A stretch of 6,992 nucleotides of DNA from a virus. Taxonomy: Duplodnaviria > Heunggongvirae > Uroviricota > Caudoviricetes. Below, piece by piece: positions 1 through 6,992 of the stretch. Both the position numbers and the translations under genes were made by a program. Each line of letters starts with the position of its first letter. The first letter of the stretch is position 1. A model generated the notes under the pieces. It had not been told where the DNA came from. It saw nothing but the letters and a program-made list of their open reading frames with translations, and made no database searches. The stretch covers positions 1-6,992 of the IMG/VR virus record IMGVR_UViG_2537562231_000012; one strand, given 5' to 3'.

Positions 1-2247
1 TGCCTCCGAAAACCAGAACTCAAACTGTACCGTCGGGTCATACACCGCAAGACGCGGGACCGCTGTTATCTGAAAATAGCCCGGTGTCAGTTCAATCGTG
101 GCGGGTACCGCAGGTGCATTAATCCTGAACGTGGTGGTGGCCGGTTCCCCCTGCTGGCCATAACTGTTAATTGCCCTGACTGTCAGGGTGTATTCCCCGA
201 GCGGCAGACCACTGAAACGATGCTCTGTATCCGCAGTGATGGCGGTGGTCACCAGACGGCTGTCCTGACCGCTTCCACTGGTCAGGCGCAGACTGAAGCG
301 CACGCCCTTCACCACCCGCGGCGTGTCCCATTTCGCCTGCGCCAGATACTGGCCGTCAGCTGCGCTCACCTCCACCGTCAGGTGCTGCACTGCCGGAGGG
401 ATGACGCTGTTCAGGGTGCCTGACTGCGGCTCAAAGCTGGCCCCGTTATCCACGATGGCTTCTTTCTCCGGCACATGCTGCACTGCCGTGATGGCAAAGG
501 TACCGTCCGTGTTTTCCCGGATGGAAACACAGCGGAACAGGCGACGACGCAGTGACGGCAGGGAGAGTCCCCACACACCGTATGTCTCCACACCATCAGG
601 CAGGGTGCTGACCTGTATCCGGTCAGGCGCGGGGTGTGCAGTGATGGCCACGCTCACCGGCTTACCGCTGCCGTTAATCAGATTAACAGTGGCCGCACCG
701 GTCTCCGGCAGGGTCACCTCCCGGTCCAGCGTCAGGGTACGGCTGGCGGCATCGATGGACAGGACACGTCCGCCGGTCATGGTCCCGGCATAGTCGTTAT
801 CACAGATTTCAATGATGTCACCGGGTGTGTGACGCAGCCCCTGTGACCCGAGCGTGAAATCCACCGTCTGCGTTTCCAGCAGTCCGGTCTTTATCACCCA
901 CAGCCCGGCACGGTGGGCCTGACCGCGACTGGTGCAGCCGAACGCATCCATCTTCAGCAGGTTGCGCCCGTAGCGCAGTATGGCTTCCGGGTCTTCCACC
1001 AGTTCCGTGGAGGTCTGCCAGCCGTTCTGCGGGTCGGTGTAATTCACCTCCACCGCCGTGTGGCGGTCCTTCAGGGCGCTGAAGCTGTAGCGAAACCCCA
1101 CGCCGTTATCATCCACCACCACATCGCAGTTGGTGTACGGCCACACCACATCCGACGGGCGGTCCTGAACGAACGTCAGCGTCTGGCCGTTCCATACCGG
1201 CATACAGCGCATCGCCGAGCAGAAATCACTGAGAACGTCCCACGCCTTACGCTGTTGTGACAGGTACGCATTAAAGGTCATCCGCGGCTCTGTGCCCCCG
1301 AAACCATCCGGGACCGTCTGGTCGCAGTACTGCGCAATGGCATACAGCGCCCATTTGTCCACGTCTGCCGCCCCCAGACGTTTTCCCATGCCGTAGCGCG
1401 GGTGAGTCAGCATGTCCCACAGGCACCAGGCCGGGTTGTTGCTGTATGCCGGTTTCAGGCTGCCGTCCCAGATGCCGCTGTAAGTGCGTTTTTCCGGGTC
1501 ATAGTTTGACGGTACCTGGATGATGCGACCGCGGATATGGTAGTTCACCGTCATCTGCTGACCGCCAAACTGCTCCGCATCCACCTGCAGCCCCACAATC
1601 GCCGTGTTCGGGTAGCACTGTTTCACATCGATGATTTCGGTGTATGACGACCAGAGCGTCTTATTCTGCAGCTGGTCCGAGGTGCTGTCCGCTGTCTCCC
1701 GGACCATCCGGATGTTAAAGGGCCGCTCAGGCAGATTATCCAGAATCACCGACGCCAGAAACTGCGAGGTGGTCTTGCCGTTAATGGTGACATCCTTTTC
1801 CGTCACCCAGTTACCGTTACGCTGTAACTGAATCAGCAGGCGGACGGATGTCGGGTTTCGGTCACCCTTTGACGTGGTCTGCACCAGTGACTGCACCCCG
1901 AAGGTGACCCGCAGGCGGTCAATGTTCGCGGATGTAATGGTGCGCGTCACCGGCTTTGCCTTCGTCACTTCCACGCCCAGTGCGGTTTCCGCCCCGGAGG
2001 ACTCAAAGCCTTCAGGTGGTGTCTGCTCCTGCTCCCCGGCGCGCCAGACCGCGGTCACACCGTGTATCACGGGATTACCGTCCGTGTCCGTCAGCGGGGT
2101 TTTGTTCACCAGGATACTCTGCAACCCCTTCACCGGACCTTCAATCGGCCCTTCACCAATGGCATCAATCACACTCATCATCTGCGTGGATTTGAGATTA
2201 TCCTTCGCCTCTCGAGGCGTGTGCGCCCTGCCGCCACCTTTGCCCAT
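1..2247 (-). CDS. J: Tail tip / central tail fibre protein J (host specificity protein), N-terminal ~749 codons; C-terminal receptor-binding part lies beyond the window start
   Basis: Minus-strand frame with ATG at 2247..2245 (preceded by AAAGGGTGAGACA, SD-like GGTGAG). I translated the N-terminus by hand as [49 protein letters not shown], and the codons at 60..1 as [20 protein letters not shown], both matching the lambda J family as I recall it. The ORF runs off the window edge without a stop, which is why it is absent from the Met-to-stop ORF track. Position directly after I matches lambda gene order. Confidence 0.9.
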
Positions 2248-2278
2248 TGTCTCACCCTTTACTGTGATAACTGTTACG

Positions 2279-2312
2279 CACAAAAACAACAGGCATCCCT
2301 GAGGATGCCTGT
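2279..2312 (-). terminator. Terminator-like hairpin on the late-gene sense strand: 9-10 bp perfect stem (plus-strand CAGGCATCC / loop CTGA / GGATGCCTG at 2290..2311), followed on the minus strand by UGUUUUUGUG
   Basis: Perfect inverted repeat read directly from the sequence; U-rich tail only in the minus-strand orientation; ends about 30 nt upstream of the J ATG. Could act as an attenuator or RNA-processing/stability element rather than a full terminator, since J must be expressed. Confidence 0.3.
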
Positions 2313-2341
2313 ATCATCACTGAATAAAACTTCTGAATATC

Positions 2342-2377
2342 TTCACATTTTCACAAACTGACTGTGGTGCTAATAAT
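2342..2377 (+). promoter_or_regulatory. Candidate sigma70-like promoter on the plus strand (antisense to the late operon): TTCACA at 2350..2355 (second copy at 2342..2347), 16-nt spacer, AATAAT at 2372..2377 with TG at 2368..2369
   Basis: Hexamer matches 5/6 and 5/6 to TTGACA/TATAAT by eye, in an AT-rich context where chance matches are common. Positioned about 60-90 nt upstream of the plus-strand terminator at 2442..2474. Confidence 0.15.
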
Positions 2378-2441
2378 TTCTCTGTGTTAATGTTTTTGTC
2401 GTGACATAAGAATAATTCCTTACACTTAATCTTCGTAACGC

Positions 2442-2474
2442 TCCCGCAGTTCCGCAACTCTGCGGGATTTTTTT
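2442..2474 (+). terminator. Rho-independent terminator-like hairpin on the plus strand: stem TCCCGCAG (2442..2449) / 10-nt loop / CTGCGGGA (2460..2467) followed by T7 (2468..2474)
   Basis: 8-bp GC-rich perfect stem immediately followed by seven T on the plus strand; on the minus strand the same hairpin is preceded by A7 and lacks a U-tail. Lies just downstream of the I stop codon (2482..2484) on the opposite strand; my reading here agrees with the ORF-track translation of the overlapping 80-aa frame. Confidence 0.4.
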
Positions 2475-2481
2475 ATTCTTT

Positions 2482-3162
2482 TTACCCCTGCCGCCCGATA
2501 ACCACGACCTTTCCGCCCCCGCCTTCATCACGGGTGCTGATGTCCTGGGATATCCGTCGTGAACCAACCAGCATTTCCCCGTAAGGCACCGGCATCGGGT
2601 TCCCCTGGGCAATCATATTGTCCAGTGACGAAAAATACGTGTTCTGTTTACCGTTATCCGTTGCGCGGTAATCCGGTGTTTTTGCCTTCGGTGCCAGCAT
2701 CTGGGCCACACCACCCAGAATCATACTGGCACCCAGTGAAAACAGCATCGTGGTGGCAGAAAAACCACCGGCACTCAGGGCTGTACCCCATAACGCCATC
2801 GAGCCTCCGGCAGTGAAGAAAGAGCCCACGATGGCTGCCGCCCCCAGCACAATCTGCAGTCCACCCTTTCCGGCTCCGGCCAGTCGCGGCACAATATGGA
2901 TAACCGTTCCCTCACCCAGTTGTTCGTGAAGGCGGGCATACACCACCTCCGGTGCCGTGTCCTCACCGCGAATACGTATCTGGTACCACCCTTCGTTCAT
3001 CTGACGGCGGAATCCCGGCACCTGTAACGACAGCGCCCGGATGGCTTCCGCTGCCGTGTTCACATACAGGCTGAGGCGGCTGCCAAATCGTTGTAAATCC
3101 CCGTGAAGGCAGATGCGTGCCAGTGGCGGTGACGCCAGACAGAATGCGTTCGTCGTTGCCAT
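2482..3162 (-). CDS. I: Tail tip assembly protein I (226 aa); N-terminal ubiquitin-like (beta-grasp) region, central Gly/Ala-rich hydrophobic segment
   Basis: ORF-track 226-aa protein MATTNAF...VVVIGRQG with strong resemblance to lambda gpI as I recall it; start overlaps the 3' end of K in another frame, as in lambda; SD-like GGAGAGG about 11 nt upstream of the ATG. Confidence 0.92.
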   Translation of the reverse strand: MATTNAFCLASPPLARICLHGDLQRFGSRLSLYVNTAAEAIRALSLQVPGFRRQMNEGWYQIRIRGEDTAPEVVYARLHEQLGEGTVIHIVPRLAGAGKGGLQIVLGAAAIVGSFFTAGGSMALWGTALSAGGFSATTMLFSLGASMILGGVAQMLAPKAKTPDYRATDNGKQNTYFSSLDNMIAQGNPMPVPYGEMLVGSRRISQDISTRDEGGGGKVVVIGRQG

Positions 3163-3803
3163 TTTTCGGAATACCTCTCCCGTTTACTCAGTTGTTCAGG
3201 CAGATGGTGAAGCAGCTCACCGTTGCCGCAGTAAATGGCGGCATGGTTCGGTACCGAAGCACCAAAGCAGCACAGCAGAATATCGCCCGCCTGTGCAGAG
3301 GACAGGGGCACCCGGTAAAAGCCGGTGACCGCCATATTGTCCAGGTAAAGGTTCTGACCGTTGCGCCACCAGTCATCCTCGCGATGAAAATCCGGCATTT
3401 CAGTCCCCGCCAGATGATAAGCATCCCGGAACAGCGTGTAACAGTCCGTCACCCCGTGCTCAAAGCGCCGTCCTGTCAGATGTGGCACACAGCGGAATTT
3501 GTGAATGTCACCCCGGCAGACCAGCCACCAGGGCAGTGCGCTTTTTATCTGCAGCCGCCGGTCAGCCTCGCTCAGCCAGGGCAGCCCACCGGGATGACTG
3601 TGGACCAGTGCCACAATCTCCCCCTGCATCTCTGCCCGCAGCCAGTCTTCCGGTGCGATACGAAAATACGCCTCCGGCTCTGCGGAAATATTCACACAAG
3701 GGATATACCGCTCCCCCTCCGGCGTGCTTATCACGAAGCCGCACGACTCCGCAGGCGCACACCGCCGGGCATGTGCCAGAATCGCTGATTCAGTCTGTGT
3801 CAT
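3060..3803 (-). CDS. K: Tail tip assembly protein K (247 aa as the longest frame from ATG 3803): N-terminal JAB/MPN (JAMM) metallopeptidase-like domain plus C-terminal NlpC/P60-like cysteine peptidase domain
   Basis: Part of the 334-aa track ORF 3060..4064; I translated MTQTESAI from the ATG at 3803..3801, 10 nt after the L stop. JAMM motif H68-S-H70-x7-S78-x2-D81 (HSHPGGLPWLSEAD) is at about 3561..3602; candidate catalytic Glu in AESCGFVI (E19). NlpC/P60-like Cys in VTDCYTLF and His in PNHAAIY. Start codon choice is uncertain (no SD before 3803). Confidence 0.88.
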   Translation of the reverse strand: MTQTESAILAHARRCAPAESCGFVISTPEGERYIPCVNISAEPEAYFRIAPEDWLRAEMQGEIVALVHSHPGGLPWLSEADRRLQIKSALPWWLVCRGDIHKFRCVPHLTGRRFEHGVTDCYTLFRDAYHLAGTEMPDFHREDDWWRNGQNLYLDNMAVTGFYRVPLSSAQAGDILLCCFGASVPNHAAIYCGNGELLHHLPEQLSKRERYSEKWQRRTHSVWRHRHWHASAFTGIYNDLAAASACM

Positions 3804-3813
3804 AAACCGGGAT

Positions 3814-4512
3814 TTACTGCGAAAGTTTATTAATGGAAAGGAAACCGCCAAAATTGCCGACATTCCTGCGCAGTTCACACCCACGCATGCACTTGCTGCA
3901 TCTGTCCTTACGGATATCCGTGGTGGGGTTGTCGAACTCATCCGCCACCGCAGGACCGTTATACCCGCATTCATCTCCCCGGTAATCCCACATACAGGTA
4001 TTCGCCAGCATAATGCGACCGGGAAACAGCGCTCCGTCCGTCTCCGTCGGTGTTGCCAGCACAAACGAGGCTGTCATGGCCGTCAGCTCTGACATCTGCT
4101 CCACCACCCAGCGGTCGCTCAGCTCCTGCTCCGGGTCCGCTTCCGGATTGCCCGCCACAAAATTCACCGCATCCAGAAAACGGGCATACACCCGGCGGCG
4201 GACCACCGTGGCCCCCACCAGGCTCTGCAGGTCCTCCGCCATTCCGGTGACCAGACCGAACAGATTCGACACCGTCAGCGACGGGCGGGCACTGCTACCC
4301 TTCCCGTTCATCTCAAAACCGCTGCCGTCAATCGGGTATGCCTGATATTGCCGCCCCTGCCAGGTGACCGCCTCCCCTTTTTCATTCAGCTCATTGCAGA
4401 AAAAATACCGCTCACCACCCTGTACCGTCAGGTCGATTTCCCAGAGTACCACCCGCGGTGACTGCTCTGATTTAACCGACTCGTTCAGACTTTCTTCGTG
4501 AATATCCTGCAT
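3814..4512 (-). CDS. L: Minor tail protein L (232 aa), tail tip complex component
   Basis: ORF-track 232-aa protein MQDIHEESLNESVKSEQSPRVVLWEIDLTVQGG..., the lambda gpL family by recollection, including the C-terminal Cys-rich stretch (CSKCMRGC); the ATG at 4512..4510 shares one base with the M stop (TGATG on the minus strand). Confidence 0.95.
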   Translation of the reverse strand: MQDIHEESLNESVKSEQSPRVVLWEIDLTVQGGERYFFCNELNEKGEAVTWQGRQYQAYPIDGSGFEMNGKGSSARPSLTVSNLFGLVTGMAEDLQSLVGATVVRRRVYARFLDAVNFVAGNPEADPEQELSDRWVVEQMSELTAMTASFVLATPTETDGALFPGRIMLANTCMWDYRGDECGYNGPAVADEFDNPTTDIRKDRCSKCMRGCELRRNVGNFGGFLSINKLSQ

Positions 4513-4841
4513 CAGTTCACCACCTGCTTAAACTCGGCACTGAATTCAACCCGCAGCATGCGAACCCGTGATGACCAGGCGGCACAGGTCACCTTTATCT
4601 GCCGCCAGGCATAAGGCGGTGTCCACAGAAACGCCTTCCAGCCACCGTGCTCTGCCAGGAACGCTTCCAGATGCCGGGCCTCCTCCCGGGTCACGGAAAG
4701 CGTCACACGGTATGTTTTCAGGTCAGCATTCAGCCCTGCCGCCATACGCTGTGAGTACCCGTCACCAAAACGCACTTCACGCACCGACGGCTGCGAGTTC
4801 ACCTCCATATCCGGCTTCACTTTCCAGCGAAATGTTTTCAT
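4512..4841 (-). CDS. M: Minor tail protein M (109 aa)
   Basis: ORF-track 109-aa protein MKTFRWKVKPDMEVNSQPSVREVRFGDGYSQR..., the lambda gpM family by recollection; its ATG (4841..4839) overlaps the H stop TGA (4840..4838) as ATGA. Confidence 0.95.
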   Translation of the reverse strand: MKTFRWKVKPDMEVNSQPSVREVRFGDGYSQRMAAGLNADLKTYRVTLSVTREEARHLEAFLAEHGGWKAFLWTPPYAWRQIKVTCAAWSSRVRMLRVEFSAEFKQVVN

Positions 4842-6992
4842 CGCCCGCTCCCCGATAACATACCGCCATCACGCAACTGCAGCCGGAGCTCATCCTGCGC
4901 CCCCTTGCGGGCCATGTCATACACCGCCTTCATCAGCTGCGGCCCCGCCTGTCCGTTGATACCGTCGTTCTGAATCACCACGTTGTTGTTCTGCTCAAAT
5001 CTGATACCCTCTGAACGCCGCATCTGCGCCGGACTTCCGGCACCGCCCACATAACCACCTTCCGCATAGCCCCGCATCAGGCGGTACAGGTTGCCGACGC
5101 CAATCCGGCTGGTTGCCTCCTTCGTGAAGACAAATTCACCACGGTGAACAATCCCCGCTGGCTCATATTTGCCGCCGGTTCCCGTAAATCCTCCGGTTGC
5201 AAAATGGAATTTCGCCGCAGCGGCCTGAATGGCTGTACCGCCTGACGCGGATGCGCCGCCACCAACAGCACCGCCAATGGCGCTGCCGATACTCCCGACA
5301 ATCCCCACCATTGCCTGCTTCAGAAAAATCTCTGTCAGCATGGAGAGCACAGAACGGGTGAAACCACGCCAGCTCTGTTCGCTGCCGGTCAGCATCGCTG
5401 CCATATTCTGTGCAATACCGTCAAAGGTCTGCGTGGCCACGCTTTTAACCTGCGAAAAACTGTCCGTCGCACTTTCCGCCCACTCGCCCCAGCCGGACTT
5501 CAGACCGGCCATCCAGCTTCCACGAAGCTGCTCCTCCGCAGACCAGGTGTTCTTCAGTGCAGATGTGGCCTTCGCCAGCGCAGCCGGATTATCACCGTAC
5601 ACCTCACGAAGGCGCTGCTCTTCCGACTCCCGCTGCGCCTGACGGTCGGTGAGGCCGCGGGCTTTTGCGCTGATGGCTGCCTGCTTCGCGCTCTGCTGCT
5701 GTTCAAACCGCGCCGCCTGCTGTGCCAGCTCATTCAGCCGTTTCTGGTGTTCAACCTTGTCGCCAAGCTCAGCCAGCTGGCGTTTGTACTCCAGCGTCTC
5801 TTTCTCATGGGTCAGCAGGGATTTTTCCTGCTCAGATAACTGCCGTTTCGTGGCTGCCTCTTTCAGGACCGCATACTGATTTTCCGCTTTCCATAAATCG
5901 CGACGCTGCTGGCTGATTTTCCCATTCGCACCGCTGTGTTTTTCCAGCGTCCGGAGCTCGGTTTCAAGCGCCAGCAGGGCAGCATGCGCCTGGTCTTCCT
6001 GACGCTCACCGGCTGACACTTTGACTCCTGACGACTTCGGCTTTTTCAGCGTTGATTCATAATCCTTTTTCGCCGCCGCCATCAGCGTGTTGTAATCCGC
6101 CTGCAGGATTTTCCCGTCTTTCAGGGCCTTATTCAGTTCTTCCTGACGGGCGGTATATTTCTCCAGCGGCGTCAGCAGACGCTCATACGCCTTCTGCGCC
6201 TCTCCGGTATACTTCAGCTGTGATGCGTCCCGTTCGGCCCGGTCCCTGGCGGCCAGTTCACCGGCTTTTTCCATATCCGACTGCAGCGTGGCCGCTGCCA
6301 GCCCCAGACGGGCATTTTCCCGGTCATTCCATGCGCCCTGCAGGTTGGCACGGAAAGAGGAGGTCTTTCCCCGGCGCTGGCTCCGGCTCTGGTACCACTG
6401 CCATTTTTTATCCGCCTCATCGAATGCCTTCTGCGCACTGGCAAGCATATCCGCTGAGGATTCCGGACGACCAATATCCAGAATGGCATCCCACATCGAT
6501 TTGAACGCCTTCCCTGTTTTATCCGCCCAGGTCTCCAGCGTCCCCATGTTTTCTTTCAGGCGACGGGTCTGCTCATCAAAGCCTTTCGTGGCAGCATCGT
6601 TCGCCGCCTGTAAGGCCCCGGCCTCATCACCGGAACGCTGCAGCTGCGCAACATACGCAATCTGCTCTGCCGTCACGTTACGGAACTGGCGCGCCATCGC
6701 CATCAGTCCCGACGTCGGGTCGGTGGTCAGTTTTCCGAAAGCCTCTGCAACCTTGTCCACCTCCACACCGGATGCAGAAGCAAAACGCGCGACACTCTGG
6801 TTGATGGCATCAAACTGTTCACCACCACGCACACCGGCATTCACCAGGGCTGCCAGTGACTCTCTCGCCTGGTTAAACGTCAGCCCTGCTGCCTGCCCGG
6901 CTCTGGAGAGCGTCAGCATGCGATCGGCAGTCAGTCCGGACTGATTACCGGAAAGAACCAGGGTTTTATTAAACGCTGAAAGCGTGGAATCT
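4838..6992 (-). CDS. H: Tail tape measure protein H, C-terminal ~717 codons; the true start lies beyond the window end
   Basis: The track ORF 4838..6919 (693 aa) begins at an internal Met. I translated 6991..6920 by hand as DSTLSAFNKTLVLSGNQSGLTADR with no stop, so the frame continues to the window edge. Long charged Ala/Gln/Glu/Lys/Arg-rich helical region and a C-terminal Gly-rich hydrophobic segment (AMVGIVGSIGSAIGGAVGGGASASGG) are typical of tape measure proteins and of lambda gpH. Confidence 0.95.
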   Translation of the reverse strand, partial: DSTLSAFNKTLVLSGNQSGLTADRMLTLSRAGQAAGLTFNQARESLAALVNAGVRGGEQFDAINQSVARFASASGVEVDKVAEAFGKLTTDPTSGLMAMARQFRNVTAEQIAYVAQLQRSGDEAGALQAANDAATKGFDEQTRRLKENMGTLETWADKTGKAFKSMWDAILDIGRPESSADMLASAQKAFDEADKKWQWYQSRSQRRGKTSSFRANLQGAWNDRENARLGLAAATLQSDMEKAGELAARDRAERDASQLKYTGEAQKAYERLLTPLEKYTARQEELNKALKDGKILQADYNTLMAAAKKDYESTLKKPKSSGVKVSAGERQEDQAHAALLALETELRTLEKHSGANGKISQQRRDLWKAENQYAVLKEAATKRQLSEQEKSLLTHEKETLEYKRQLAELGDKVEHQKRLNELAQQAARFEQQQSAKQAAISAKARGLTDRQAQRESEEQRLREVYGDNPAALAKATSALKNTWSAEEQLRGSWMAGLKSGWGEWAESATDSFSQVKSVATQTFDGIAQNMAAMLTGSEQSWRGFTRSVLSMLTEIFLKQAMVGIVGSIGSAIGGAVGGGASASGGTAIQAAAAKFHFATGGFTGTGGKYEPAGIVHRGEFVFTKEATSRIGVGNLYRLMRGYAEGGYVGGAGSPAQMRRSEGIRFEQNNNVVIQNDGINGQAGPQLMKAVYDMARKGAQDELRLQLRDGGMLSGSGR

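What the first reader, a model, noticed from the sequence alone, without database searches (positions are those of the whole stretch)
2248..2481. AT-rich 234-bp island between I and J breaks the otherwise tight packing of the tail module
Every other junction here is overlapping or 10 nt (H/M ATGA, M/L TGATG, L-K 10 nt, K/I about 100-nt overlap), yet I and J are separated by 234 bp. The core is about 32% GC against GC-rich flanking genes, and it holds two perfect hairpins and promoter-like hexamers. From memory the lambda reference has only about 60 bp between I and J, so this may be an insertion of roughly 170 bp: a moron remnant, a mosaic recombination joint, or a small regulatory/RNA element. 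It is the only sequence in the window not accounted for by known structural genes.
Basis: partly seen in the sequence, partly recalled or inferred. Interest (0 to 1): 0.55.

Follow-up and report, generated by a model that had tools for sequence, protein, structure and literature searches.

The report
Known prophage small-RNA gene between tail genes
The AT-rich gap between tail genes I and J holds a small regulatory RNA gene, of the PasB/EcOnc22 family already described in pathogenic E. coli prophages, that reads against the tail genes; it is real, and here a new sequence variant of a known thing.

Summary
I (2482-3162, minus) and J (start 2247, minus) are 234 bp apart, with 38% GC (core 31%) against 58-60% in the flanks. 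The gap holds two perfect hairpins and one sigma-70-like promoter. Lambda has 60 bp here, so about 174 bp is extra.

The extra DNA is a small-RNA cassette on the plus strand, antisense to the tail operon:
- promoter TTCACA-16-AATAAT (2350-2377)
- RNA body (2384 or 2397 to 2474) with a conserved single-stranded anti-Shine-Dalgarno-like block (2411-2436)
- intrinsic terminator (2442-2467 plus U7), ending 7 nt from the I stop codon

It sits where two published Hfq-dependent sRNAs sit:
- PasB of EPEC E2348/69 (83 nt)
- EcOnc22/23/24 of EHEC Sakai (about 85 nt)

A covariance model built only from other alleles hits window 2396-2474(+) at 61.5 bits, E about 1e-11. Rfam has no such family and RefSeq leaves the spacer unannotated.

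The second hairpin (2289-2312 plus a U-tract) is terminator-like on the tail-sense strand, just before J. Lambda and a third spacer type carry unrelated hairpins at the same place.

Verdict: a real feature of a known kind. This allele is about 72-77% identical to the characterised ones. Its targets are unknown. Interest is low.

The parts
2245..2247 (-). Start codon of J (tip attachment / host specificity protein); left border of the spacer
   Evidence: Pfam FNIII-A_GpJ, Ig_J, Phage-tail_3.
2279..2312 (-). Terminator-like hairpin on the tail-sense strand just upstream of J: ACAGGCAUCC-UCAG-GGAUGCCUGU, followed by UGUUUUUGUG
   Evidence: Perfect 10-bp inverted repeat. Called as a minus-strand terminator-like site. 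Fold z = -3.3. Kept in 14 distinct versions of this 50-nt segment drawn from IMG/VR contigs, the Sakai and E2348/69 loci and the window, with compensatory AUCC/GGAU to ACCC/GGGU changes. Function as a terminator is inferred.
2313..2349 (.). Well conserved block upstream of the sRNA promoter (ATCATCACTGAATAAAACTTCTGAATATCTTCACATT); possible regulator or UP-element region, function unknown
   Evidence: Conserved between the window, Sakai Sp15, E2348/69 PP6 and PPompW-type spacers. Conservation in the IMG/VR set is biased, because this block was the search pattern.
2350..2377 (+). Sigma-70-like promoter of the sRNA: -35 TTCACA (2350-2355), 16-nt spacer, -10 AATAAT (2372-2377)
   Evidence: 10 of 12 matches. 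The same geometry appears with TATAAT in E2348/69, AATAAT in Sakai and TATCAT in the L011 type. Use of this promoter is inferred; no start-site data exist for this allele.
2384..2474 (+). PasB/EcOnc22-family small RNA. The largest extent runs from the promoter-predicted start (about 2384). The 5' end homologous to mapped PasB is at about 2397, giving about 78 nt.
   Evidence: Covariance model R1, built from 12 alleles of other types, hits 2396-2474(+) at 61.5 bits, E 1.1e-11. The same model recovers exactly the published PasB coordinates in E2348/69 and the EcOnc22/23/24 loci in Sakai. The sequence is 72% identical to PasB and 77% to EcOnc22.
2411..2436 (+). Conserved, mostly unpaired block AAUAAUUCCUUACACUUAAUCUUCGU: A-rich stretch plus a CUCCUU/UCCUU anti-Shine-Dalgarno-like motif and UUAAUCUUC; the presumed seed
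   Evidence: Most conserved part of the RNA body across the 20 representative alleles aligned out of 43 distinct ones. Zhu, Shabalina and Storz 2026 place the PasB seed just upstream of the terminator. Pairing function is inferred.
2442..2474 (+). Intrinsic terminator of the sRNA: UCCCGCAG-10 nt loop-CUGCGGGA, then U7 (2468-2474); ends 7 nt before the complement of the I stop codon
   Evidence: All 25 distinct 3' ends examined fold into a terminator hairpin. There is one compensatory G:C to A:U change, and stem variants occur in divergent alleles.
2482..2484 (-). Stop codon (TAA) of tail assembly gene I; right border of the spacer

Best explanation
The island is a self-contained small-RNA gene inserted between tail genes I and J, as a moron is, in one lineage of lambda-like tail modules. 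It is transcribed from its own sigma-70 promoter (2350-2377) on the strand opposite to the tail operon. It gives an RNA of about 78-91 nt that ends at an intrinsic terminator (2442-2474) just short of the I stop codon.

It belongs to the same family as PasB (EPEC E2348/69) and EcOnc22/23/24 (EHEC Sakai). Those are Hfq-bound, Hfq-stabilised sRNAs made in the lysogen while the surrounding tail genes are silent.

Most likely mechanism, which is inferred: a trans-acting Hfq-dependent sRNA. Its conserved single-stranded block (2411-2436), which contains a UCCUU/CUCCUU anti-Shine-Dalgarno-like motif, pairs with host or prophage mRNAs, probably at ribosome-binding sites.

The other hairpin (2289-2312 plus a U-tract) is not part of this RNA. 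It is a terminator-like element on the tail-sense strand before J. It would stop ordinary transcription from entering J, while Q-modified late transcription reads through. That last step follows from established lambda biology and was not tested here.

Shown: position, strand, homology, conserved architecture, and published expression and Hfq data for homologues. Inferred: expression of this allele, its exact 5' end, its targets, and the role of the sense hairpin.
For: Position and strand:
- PasB is listed at NC_011601 1466343 to 1466261, minus strand, 83 nt, between E2348C_1436 and E2348C_1437 (PMC8550237 table S6). Those genes are I and J, so PasB is antisense to them and ends 6 nt from the I stop.
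- The EcOnc22/23/24 Hfq-CRAC peaks lie on the plus strand in the I-J spacers of Sp15, Sp14 and Sp11, opposite to the tail genes. The northern band is about 85 nt and is destabilised without hfq (PMC4104026 table S2).
- After correcting old to new Sakai coordinates by +136, calibrated on two HnrS copies, the EcOnc22 peak maps to L002 1651-1711, inside the model hit at 1649-1727.

Homology: model R1, built without window-type alleles, scores 61.5 bits (E 1e-11) at 2396-2474(+). It does not hit lambda or the HnrS loci.

Architecture across 43 distinct alleles: variable 5' part, conserved seed block and conserved terminator.

Expression of a homologue in the lysogen: PasB base mean is 482-1082 against 5-15 for the flanking I and J, and log2 change in delta-hfq is -6.8 and -2.4.

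Distribution:
- Matches in 1380 of 5426 complete E. coli genomes, up to 8 copies each, all unannotated in the listed rows.
- Matches in 149 phage records, mostly Stx phages.
- Absent from lambda-type modules.
Against: - No expression, start-site or Hfq data exist for this particular allele, which is only 72-77% identical to the characterised ones.
- The 5' end is ambiguous. The good -10 (AATAAT) predicts a start near 2384 (about 91 nt). The mapped PasB 5' end and the CRAC peak edge correspond to about 2397 (about 78 nt), where no convincing -10 exists, so processing has to be assumed.
- No validated target of PasB or EcOnc22 is known (one search lists the target as unknown; one search calls the seed only proposed).
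- RNAalifold found no consensus fold for the body, and covariation in the terminator rests on very few events.
- The seed shows no better-than-random pairing with the translation start regions of the six tail genes in the window.
Confidence: 0.85

Rival explanations
1. The RNA's main job is in cis. It is fully complementary to the I-J intercistronic part of the late tail transcript. It would either direct cleavage or dampening of J expression (tail tip, host range), or be soaked up by the late transcript on induction, so that its trans targets are released when the prophage goes lytic. This can coexist with the trans model.
For: The RNA lies wholly inside the transcribed I-J spacer on the opposite strand, so complementarity of about 78-91 nt follows from the layout. 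The cassette is fixed at this one junction in all variants seen. In the PPompW type it stays next to I while the J-proximal part is exchanged.
Against: No data show duplex formation or cleavage. PasB forms chimeras with many other RNAs on Hfq (37 interactions, interaction rank 15), which fits trans action. In lysogens the tail genes are almost silent, so a cis target is present only after induction. Lambda-type phages do without it.
Confidence: 0.15
2. The island encodes a small protein on the tail-sense strand. Many alleles carry an open frame that begins MKINV(K/M)ELF, whose ATG is the complement of the conserved seed end (AUCUUCAU), with a GGGAG-like ribosome site supplied by the terminator arm. 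On this reading the conservation reflects a peptide, not an RNA seed.
For:: sense-strand frames of 39-47 codons in Sakai-type, L007-type, L012-type and window-type alleles, sharing an N-terminal KI(N/K)xKELF motif and a C-terminal ENVK(I/S)FR(S/N)FI motif. Several differences between alleles in the first seven codons are synonymous (ATT/ATC, AAC/AAT, GTT/GTG; read).
Against: - The ATG is replaced by ACG or ACA in about half of the allele types, including this window. Here the frame opens only from a TTG inside the hairpin.
- The frame is cut to 22-26 codons in E2348/69 and in near-identical relatives of the window that differ by one T in a homopolymer run.
- It is out of frame with the C-terminal block in the commonest L011 type.
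- Indels between alleles are not multiples of three.
- The experimentally detected RNA is on the other strand.
Confidence: 0.04
3. The island is functionless AT-rich filler left by recombination between tail-module lineages, and the hairpins and hexamers are chance features.
For: The spacer is modular and recombinogenic. The J-proximal third is replaced by unrelated sequence in PPompW-type phages. There are short tandem duplications near the J start in some alleles and an IS insertion in one contig.
Against: - Both hairpins are kept with compensatory changes.
- The terminator count exceeds shuffles.
- Fold z-scores run from -3 to -4.4.
- The model hit has E about 1e-11.
- Homologues give a discrete, abundant, Hfq-dependent RNA.
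Confidence: 0.03
4. It is a copy of one of the better-known prophage sRNAs of EHEC: the anti-sRNAs AgvB/AsxR, or HnrS.
For: It has the same general look: short, Hfq-associated, prophage-borne, multicopy, with a variable 5' part and a conserved 3' terminator (PMC4104026; PMC13502914).
Against: - AgvB and AsxR lie in the moron site downstream of PR'. Rfam has models for them (RF02702, RF02703), and neither matches the region even at E up to 10.
- HnrS (EcOnc10-12) lies after the Rz endopeptidase gene, before the terminase genes, and has a different sequence.
- Model R1 does not hit the HnrS loci.
Confidence: 0.01

Closest known systems
PasB, 'pathogenicity associated sRNA' of EPEC O127:H6 E2348/69 prophage PP6 (Pearl Mizrahi et al. 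2021, PMC8550237; Zhu, Shabalina and Storz 2026 preprint, doi 10.64898/2026.05.13.724894)
   Same: Same slot (I-J spacer), same antisense orientation, 3' end abutting the I stop. Same promoter geometry, same terminator arms (CCCGCAG/CUGCGGG plus a U-run), and a homologous seed block.
   Different: Only about 72% identical overall. The 5' third differs (GUCGUGACAUAAGAAUAAU against GCCCGAGUAACAAAAACAAC). The seed differs at several positions (UUCCUUACACUUAAUCUUCGU against CUCCUUCACAUUGAUCUUCAU), so the target set may differ. No experimental data exist for this allele.
EcOnc22/EcOnc23/EcOnc24 of EHEC O157:H7 Sakai prophages Sp15 (Stx1), Sp14 and Sp11 (Tree et al. 2014, PMC4104026, table S2)
   Same: Same slot and strand. 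Hfq-CRAC peak over the RNA body, about 85 nt on northern, destabilised without hfq. About 77% identical to the window allele.
   Different: Different 5' part. None of the three papers checked links EcOnc22-24 to PasB: table S6 of PMC8550237 gives EHEC homologues for PasA and PasD but none for PasB; the 2026 preprint never mentions EcOnc; the one paper found for the term 'EcOnc22' lists its target as unknown. The equivalence is shown here by position and by model R1.
AgvB and AsxR anti-sRNAs (Rfam RF02702, RF02703) and HnrS of EHEC prophages
   Same: Short Hfq-associated sRNAs carried as extra transcription units in lambdoid prophages, often in several copies per genome, with a variable 5' part and a conserved terminator.
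   Different: Other slots: downstream of PR' for AgvB and AsxR; between the lysis genes and the terminase genes for HnrS. The sequences are unrelated.
Lambda I-J intercistronic spacer (NC_001416 15445-15504)
   Same: Same junction. It also carries a GC-rich hairpin followed by U's on the sense strand just before the J ribosome site.
   Different: 60 bp instead of 234. It has no sRNA cassette (no R1 hit), and its hairpin is unrelated in sequence.
Morons of lambdoid phages (Juhala et al. 2000, cited in PMC4104026)
   Same: Extra DNA between two conserved phage genes, with its own promoter and terminator and a deviant base composition. Expressed from the repressed prophage in homologues.
   Different: The product is an RNA, not a protein. 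It is transcribed against the surrounding operon. Within its tail-module lineage it is fixed rather than sporadic.

Membership tests
PasB / EcOnc22-24 sRNA family (I-J junction sRNA of lambdoid prophages) | Located in the spacer between tail assembly gene I and tip gene J, on the strand opposite to them, with the 3' end next to the I stop codon | tested here: met
   Window hit at 2396-2474(+), with I and J on the minus strand; the U-run ends 7 nt from the I stop. The layout is the same in E2348/69 and Sakai.
PasB / EcOnc22-24 sRNA family (I-J junction sRNA of lambdoid prophages) | Sequence and structure homology to the characterised members | tested here: met
   Covariance model from 12 alleles of other types: 61.5 bits, E 1.1e-11. 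72% identity to PasB and 77% to EcOnc22. There is no Rfam family to test against.
PasB / EcOnc22-24 sRNA family (I-J junction sRNA of lambdoid prophages) | Intrinsic (Rho-independent) terminator with a 3' U-run, the usual Hfq-binding module | tested here: met
   8-bp perfect stem plus U7. Conserved in all 25 distinct 3' ends examined.
PasB / EcOnc22-24 sRNA family (I-J junction sRNA of lambdoid prophages) | Conserved single-stranded seed just upstream of the terminator | tested here: met
   The block 2411-2436 aligns with the most conserved body segment. It is partly paired in the minimum-energy fold of this allele. The seed was proposed, not validated, in the literature.
PasB / EcOnc22-24 sRNA family (I-J junction sRNA of lambdoid prophages) | Own promoter; expressed in the lysogen as a discrete RNA of about 80-85 nt | tested here: inconclusive
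   The promoter-like site TTCACA-16-AATAAT is present and positionally conserved. The predicted start (about 2384) is 13 nt upstream of the 5' end homologous to mapped PasB. Expression of this allele cannot be measured here.
PasB / EcOnc22-24 sRNA family (I-J junction sRNA of lambdoid prophages) | Binds Hfq and depends on it for stability | not testable with these tools
   Known only for homologues.
AgvB/AsxR anti-sRNA family | Match to Rfam RF02702 or RF02703; location in the moron site downstream of PR' | tested here: not met
   No Rfam match at gathering score in the window, nor at E up to 10 in 2100-2650. The location is the tail module, against the PR' site.
HnrS (EcOnc10-12) | 66-nt sRNA after the Rz endopeptidase gene, with a CUUCU seed against the hha ribosome site | tested here: not met
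   The HnrS loci in Sakai lie between the Rz endopeptidase gene and the DNase and terminase genes. Their sequence is unrelated, and model R1 does not hit them.
Moron (autonomous extra transcription unit in a lambdoid phage) | Present in some relatives and absent in others at the same junction; own promoter and terminator; deviant base composition | tested here: met
   60 bp in lambda against 234 bp here. Lambda class about 55-60 bp against 237-342 bp. Promoter and terminator present. 31-38% GC against 58-60%. Expression in the lysogen is known for homologues only.
Type I toxin-antitoxin (antisense sRNA over a small toxin frame) | Conserved small hydrophobic open frame with its own promoter on the strand opposite to the sRNA | tested here: not met
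   The sense frame lacks a conserved start, is truncated in many alleles and has no membrane-helix-like stretch. No promoter-like site was found on the minus strand in 2000-2800.

The most novel reading that the evidence does not exclude
The I-J junction of Stx-phage-type tail modules may be a two-way RNA control point rather than just a parking place for an sRNA. The PasB-family RNA made in the lysogen would pair in cis with the late tail transcript, or be titrated by it on induction. The sense-strand terminator-like hairpin recurs in three unrelated sequence versions before J (lambda, this type, PPompW type) and would gate entry of transcription into the host-range gene J and the genes after it. 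The allelic 5' and seed variation of the sRNA would then give different prophages different host targets. None of this is excluded by the data, and none of it is shown.
Probability: 0.12. Interest if true: 0.55.

Novelty: new member of a known kind. Interest (0 to 1): 0.22.

Why it matters
The case matters mainly for annotation. A piece of DNA present in about a quarter of complete E. coli genomes (1380 of 5426, up to 8 copies), and in most Stx-phage records that share this tail module, is left blank by standard annotation because no Rfam family exists for it.

Two further points:
- EPEC PasB and EHEC EcOnc22-24 turn out to be one family, with at least half a dozen allele types that share a seed and a terminator. 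Results from the two pathotypes can therefore be pooled, and the allelic differences in the seed give ready-made variants for target mapping.
- The function of the family is still unknown. Any real advance would come from experiments, not from this window.

Tried and rejected
- **Rfam.** Nothing at gathering score in the whole window. In 2100-2650 at E up to 10, only chance hits well below gathering score.
- **HnrS.** I followed this lead because the sRNA is multicopy and described as sitting in the 'late genes'. I rejected it after locating EcOnc12 and EcOnc10 in Sakai, after the Rz endopeptidase gene.
- **AgvB/AsxR.** Rejected on position and sequence.
- **Raw EcOnc22 coordinates.** These first seemed to put the Hfq peak on the J-proximal hairpin. 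That was an artefact of the old Sakai coordinate system, and calibration on two HnrS copies gives a shift of +136.
- **RNAalifold on 20 alleles.** It gave no consensus structure because MAFFT misaligned the divergent terminators. Per-sequence folds and a hand-given structure were used instead. Covariation support is thin: one compensatory pair.
- **A conserved 5' hairpin in the longer (promoter-start) form.** None is consistent across alleles.
- **Pairing of the seed with translation start regions of J, I, K, L, M and H.** Not better than shuffled seeds.
- **Small-ORF reading.** Examined and judged unlikely.
- **RIL-seq partner list of PasB.** It could not be read out within the supplement look-up limit, so targets stay unknown here.
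- **Scan of one genome per species.** It found only two tiny contigs in unrelated taxa, probably contamination.
Full report
**1. What is in the sequence**

All genes of the window run on the minus strand. Pfam identifies them as follows:

| Gene | Coordinates | Note |
|---|---|---|
| H (tape measure) | 4838 to beyond the right end | runs off the window |
| M | 4512-4841 | |
| L | 3814-4512 | |
| K | 3060-3803 | |
| I | 2482-3162 | |
| J | from 2247 to beyond the left end | N-terminal 749 codons in the window |

H/M overlap by 4 nt, M/L share 1 nt, the L-K gap is 10 nt, and K/I overlap by 103 nt with the long I start.

The I-J spacer is 2248-2481, 234 bp. Its GC content is 38.0%, and 31.2% in the core 2313-2440. 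I is 58.6% and J is 60.2%.

There are two perfect inverted repeats: 2289-2298/2303-2312 and 2442-2449/2460-2467. A consensus scan calls each a terminator-like site, but on opposite strands. The first is on the minus (tail-sense) strand, followed by UGUUUUUGUG. The second is on the plus strand, followed by U7. The scan also finds one promoter-like site on the plus strand, TTCACA-16-AATAAT at 2350-2377.

These features exceed chance. The scan found four terminator-like sites against 0.8 expected in shuffles. Fold z-scores are -4.4 for the spacer and -3.0 for the plus-strand RNA, and -3.3 for the J-proximal hairpin.

**2. Comparison with lambda and other tail modules**

In lambda, I ends at 15444 and J starts at 15505, which gives 60 bp. 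Outside the coding flanks the two spacers do not align, so about 174 bp is extra here.

I searched the phage collection with 200 bp of I joined to 200 bp of J. The result is a clean split:
- Records whose I and J ends are at least 90% identical to the window (about 150, mostly Stx1, Stx2 and Stx2c phages) have spacers of 237-342 bp.
- Lambda-type records (about 110, 60-80% identical) have about 55-60 bp.

The island is therefore neither universal nor sporadic. It is fixed in one lineage of tail modules.

The spacer alone matches 149 phage records. It also matches 1380 of 5426 complete E. coli genomes, with a median of 2 and up to 8 copies. No annotated feature lies under the match in any listed row.

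A scan of one genome per species found the conserved 29-mer only in two tiny contigs of unrelated taxa, which look like contamination. That fits a host range limited to Escherichia.

**3. Identification**

The literature on prophage sRNAs of pathogenic E. coli gave three leads.

*HnrS (EcOnc10-12)* is multicopy and lies 'within the late genes' (PMC13502914). In Sakai, however, it sits after the Rz endopeptidase gene and has a different sequence.

*AgvB and AsxR* lie downstream of PR' (PMC4104026). Their Rfam models do not match here.

*PasB* fits. Table S6 of Pearl Mizrahi et al. 2021 (PMC8550237) places it at NC_011601 1466343 to 1466261, minus strand, 83 nt, between E2348C_1436 and E2348C_1437. 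These are I (ends 1466255) and J (starts 1466496), both on the plus strand. PasB therefore lies in the I-J spacer, antisense to the tail genes, with its 3' end 6 nt from the I stop. That is the arrangement of the plus-strand terminator in the window.

*EcOnc22, 23 and 24* of Tree et al. 2014 (table S2) also fit. These are Hfq-CRAC peaks on the plus strand in prophages Sp15, Sp14 and Sp11, with a northern band of about 85 nt that is destabilised without hfq. In all three prophages the tail genes are on the minus strand, and the peaks fall in the 240-bp I-J spacer.

The published coordinates refer to the older Sakai sequence. I required the HnrS peak to sit identically on its two oppositely oriented copies, which gives a shift of +136. 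With that shift the EcOnc22 peak maps to locus L002 1651-1711.

**4. Membership test**

I collected 119 I-J spacers (64 distinct) using a conserved 29-mer: IMG/VR contigs found by the scan, plus the Sakai and E2348/69 loci already fetched and the window itself. They contain 43 distinct sRNA alleles.

From 12 alleles that are not of the window type I built a covariance model, giving it only the terminator helix as structure. The results:

| Target | Hit | Bits |
|---|---|---|
| Window | 2396-2474(+), E 1.1e-11 | 61.5 |
| E2348/69 (L003) | 1462-1544(-), exactly the published PasB coordinates | 94.8 |
| Sakai Sp15 (L002) | 1649-1727(+), enclosing the corrected EcOnc22 peak | 94.1 |
| Sakai Sp14 (L004) | 780-858(+) | 94.1 |
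| Sakai Sp11 (L005) | 830-908(+) | 94.1 |
| PPompW-type phage (L126) | 306-388(-) | 96.4 |
| Lambda and the HnrS loci | none | - |

The E2348/69 and Sakai Sp15 alleles were in the model's training set (the Sp14 and Sp11 copies carry the same spacer sequence as Sp15), so their high scores are expected by construction. The informative results are the window hit and the absence of hits in lambda and at the HnrS loci.

The window allele is 72% identical to PasB and 77% to EcOnc22. Those two are 73% identical to each other. PasB and EcOnc22-24 are thus one family, and the window carries a further allele of it.

I did not find this equivalence stated in the three papers checked. Table S6 names EHEC homologues for PasA and PasD but not for PasB. 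The 2026 preprint on Pas sRNA distribution never mentions EcOnc. The one paper found for the term 'EcOnc22', a 2021 review, lists its target as unknown.

**5. Anatomy of the cassette (plus strand)**

- **Promoter.** TTCACA (2350-2355), 16 nt, AATAAT (2372-2377). The same spacing carries TATAAT in E2348/69, AATAAT in Sakai and TATCAT in the commonest IMG/VR type.
- **5' end.** The promoter predicts a start near 2384. The mapped 5' end of PasB, and the 5' edge of the EcOnc22 peak, correspond to about 2397, just after a U-run, where I see no credible -10. The simplest reconciliation is a primary transcript of about 91 nt trimmed in the U-run to about 78 nt. This is inference.
- **Body.** The 5' third varies between alleles. 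It is followed by an A-rich stretch and a conserved block, AAUAA(C/U)UCC(U/A)UA..(U)UAAUCUUC(A/G)U (window 2411-2436). That block holds an anti-Shine-Dalgarno-like CUCCUU or UCCUU. Zhu, Shabalina and Storz propose the PasB seed in just this place.
- **Terminator.** UCCCGCAG / CUGCGGGA plus U7 (2442-2474). Every one of 25 distinct 3' ends folds into a terminator. One allele has a compensatory G:C to A:U change, and divergent alleles use shifted but equivalent stems. Statistical covariation support is weak because most pairs never vary.

**6. How it most likely works**

Published data for homologues show the following:
- A discrete RNA of about 83-85 nt.
- Binding to Hfq in vivo.
- Strong dependence on Hfq: log2 change of -6.8 and -2.4 in delta-hfq.
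- Abundance in the lysogen (base mean 482-1082) while the flanking I and J are nearly silent (5-15).
- 37 RNA partners in RIL-seq.

Together with the conserved unpaired block and the terminator with its U-tail, they point to an ordinary trans-acting Hfq-dependent base-pairing sRNA, expressed from the repressed prophage. In effect it is an RNA moron.

No target has been validated, so direction and physiological role are unknown. Because the RNA is fully complementary to the I-J part of the late transcript, a cis role is possible and is kept as a rival. That role could be cleavage of the late transcript or titration of the sRNA on induction. The seed does not pair better than shuffled controls with the start regions of the six tail genes here.

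**7. The other hairpin**

The element at 2289-2312 is not part of the sRNA. It lies 38 bp upstream of the -35 element. On the tail-sense strand it reads ACAGGCAUCC-UCAG-GGAUGCCUGU-UGUUUUUG, about 30 nt before the J ribosome site.

It is conserved in all variants, with compensatory AUCC/GGAU to ACCC/GGGU changes.

Lambda has an unrelated hairpin at the same place (AAACCGCC-UGCG-GGCGGUUUU). The PPompW-type 342-bp spacer has a third, unrelated one (CCCCGGUAUC-UGCU-GAUACCGGGG-UUUCUCUUU). Recurrence in three sequence versions suggests a selected function on the sense strand.

Since Q-modified polymerase reads through terminators (established lambda biology), the hairpin would block only non-antiterminated transcription from entering J, or would act as an RNA stability element. 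I could not test this.

**8. Rivals considered**

- **Sense-strand small ORF (MKINV...).** It exists in many alleles, and some differences are synonymous. However, its start codon is missing in about half of the allele types, including this one. It is truncated by single-base homopolymer changes in close relatives and in E2348/69, and it is out of frame in the commonest type.
- **Chance or junk.** Excluded by conservation and by the published RNA data.
- **Other named sRNAs.** Excluded by position and sequence.

**9. Verdict**

The 'small regulatory/RNA element' option is the correct one. The element is a member of an already described sRNA family, so it is not new in kind.

New here:
- the explicit link between PasB and EcOnc22-24
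- the picture of an allelic series with a shared seed and terminator
- the assignment of the two hairpins to opposite strands
- the recurrent sense-strand hairpin before J

Interest is low.

Noticed in passing
window 2279-2312 (minus); L006 (lambda) about 763-790; L126 (PPompW_EH2246) about 508-545: Three unrelated sequence versions of a GC-rich hairpin followed by U's sit on the tail-sense strand just before the J ribosome site: lambda type, window type and PPompW type. A terminator-like element inside the late operon at this one junction seems to be selected. I did not find it described in the papers read.
   Followed up: partly
L126 292-650 (LC567836.1 PPompW_EH2246); also ON470626.1 and LC567824.1: A 342-bp version of the I-J spacer. 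The PasB cassette (E2348/69-like allele) and its upstream block are kept, but the J-proximal third is replaced by about 170 bp of unrelated sequence. The spacer is therefore built from two exchangeable modules.
   Followed up: partly
L033 (IMGVR_UViG_2534681940_000025), around its pattern match at 647-675: In one contig the sequence diverges right after TTCACAAACTGA, inside the sRNA promoter spacer, into an open frame starting MTKNTRFSPEVRQRAVRMVLESQGEYD. From memory this looks like the first ORF of an IS3-family element (IS629-like). An insertion sequence has apparently knocked out the sRNA promoter.
   Followed up: no
window 2317-2457 (minus) and the homologous frames in the IMG/VR variants: A sense-strand frame (MKINV(K/M)ELF...ENVKIFRNFI) overlaps the sRNA. 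Its ATG is the complement of the conserved seed end, and a GGGAG-like site comes from the terminator arm. It is intact in some alleles and broken in many, and here it is open only from a TTG. It is probably a by-product of seed conservation.
   Followed up: partly
L002, L004, L005, L001, L127 (Sakai NC_002695.2) against table S2 of PMC4104026: Coordinates of EcOnc peaks in Tree et al. 2014 are in the older Sakai sequence. In the region 1.78-2.90 Mb they must be shifted by about +136 to fit NC_002695.2. Without the shift, EcOnc22-24 appear to sit on the wrong hairpin.
   Followed up: yes
IMG/VR variants u15, u19, u23, u44, u47, between the J start and the sense hairpin; corresponds to window about 2262-2270: Sakai-type spacers carry one to three tandem copies of a 7-nt unit (TGTCTGA) in the J leader, so leader length varies between otherwise near-identical prophages.
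   Followed up: no
L129 (Asaia platycodi NZ_BAKW01000035.1, 546 bp) and L130 (Parendozoicomonas haliclonae NZ_FWPT01000051.1, 460 bp): The only matches to the conserved 29-mer among one genome per species are two very short contigs in unrelated bacteria. These are most likely E. coli prophage contamination in those assemblies.
   Followed up: no
window 4838-6992 (minus): The tape-measure gene H runs off the right end of the window; there is no stop upstream of 6919 in frame. The 693-codon ORF listed is therefore only its C-terminal part; the homologue in F8704-2 is 2580 bp.
   Followed up: yes
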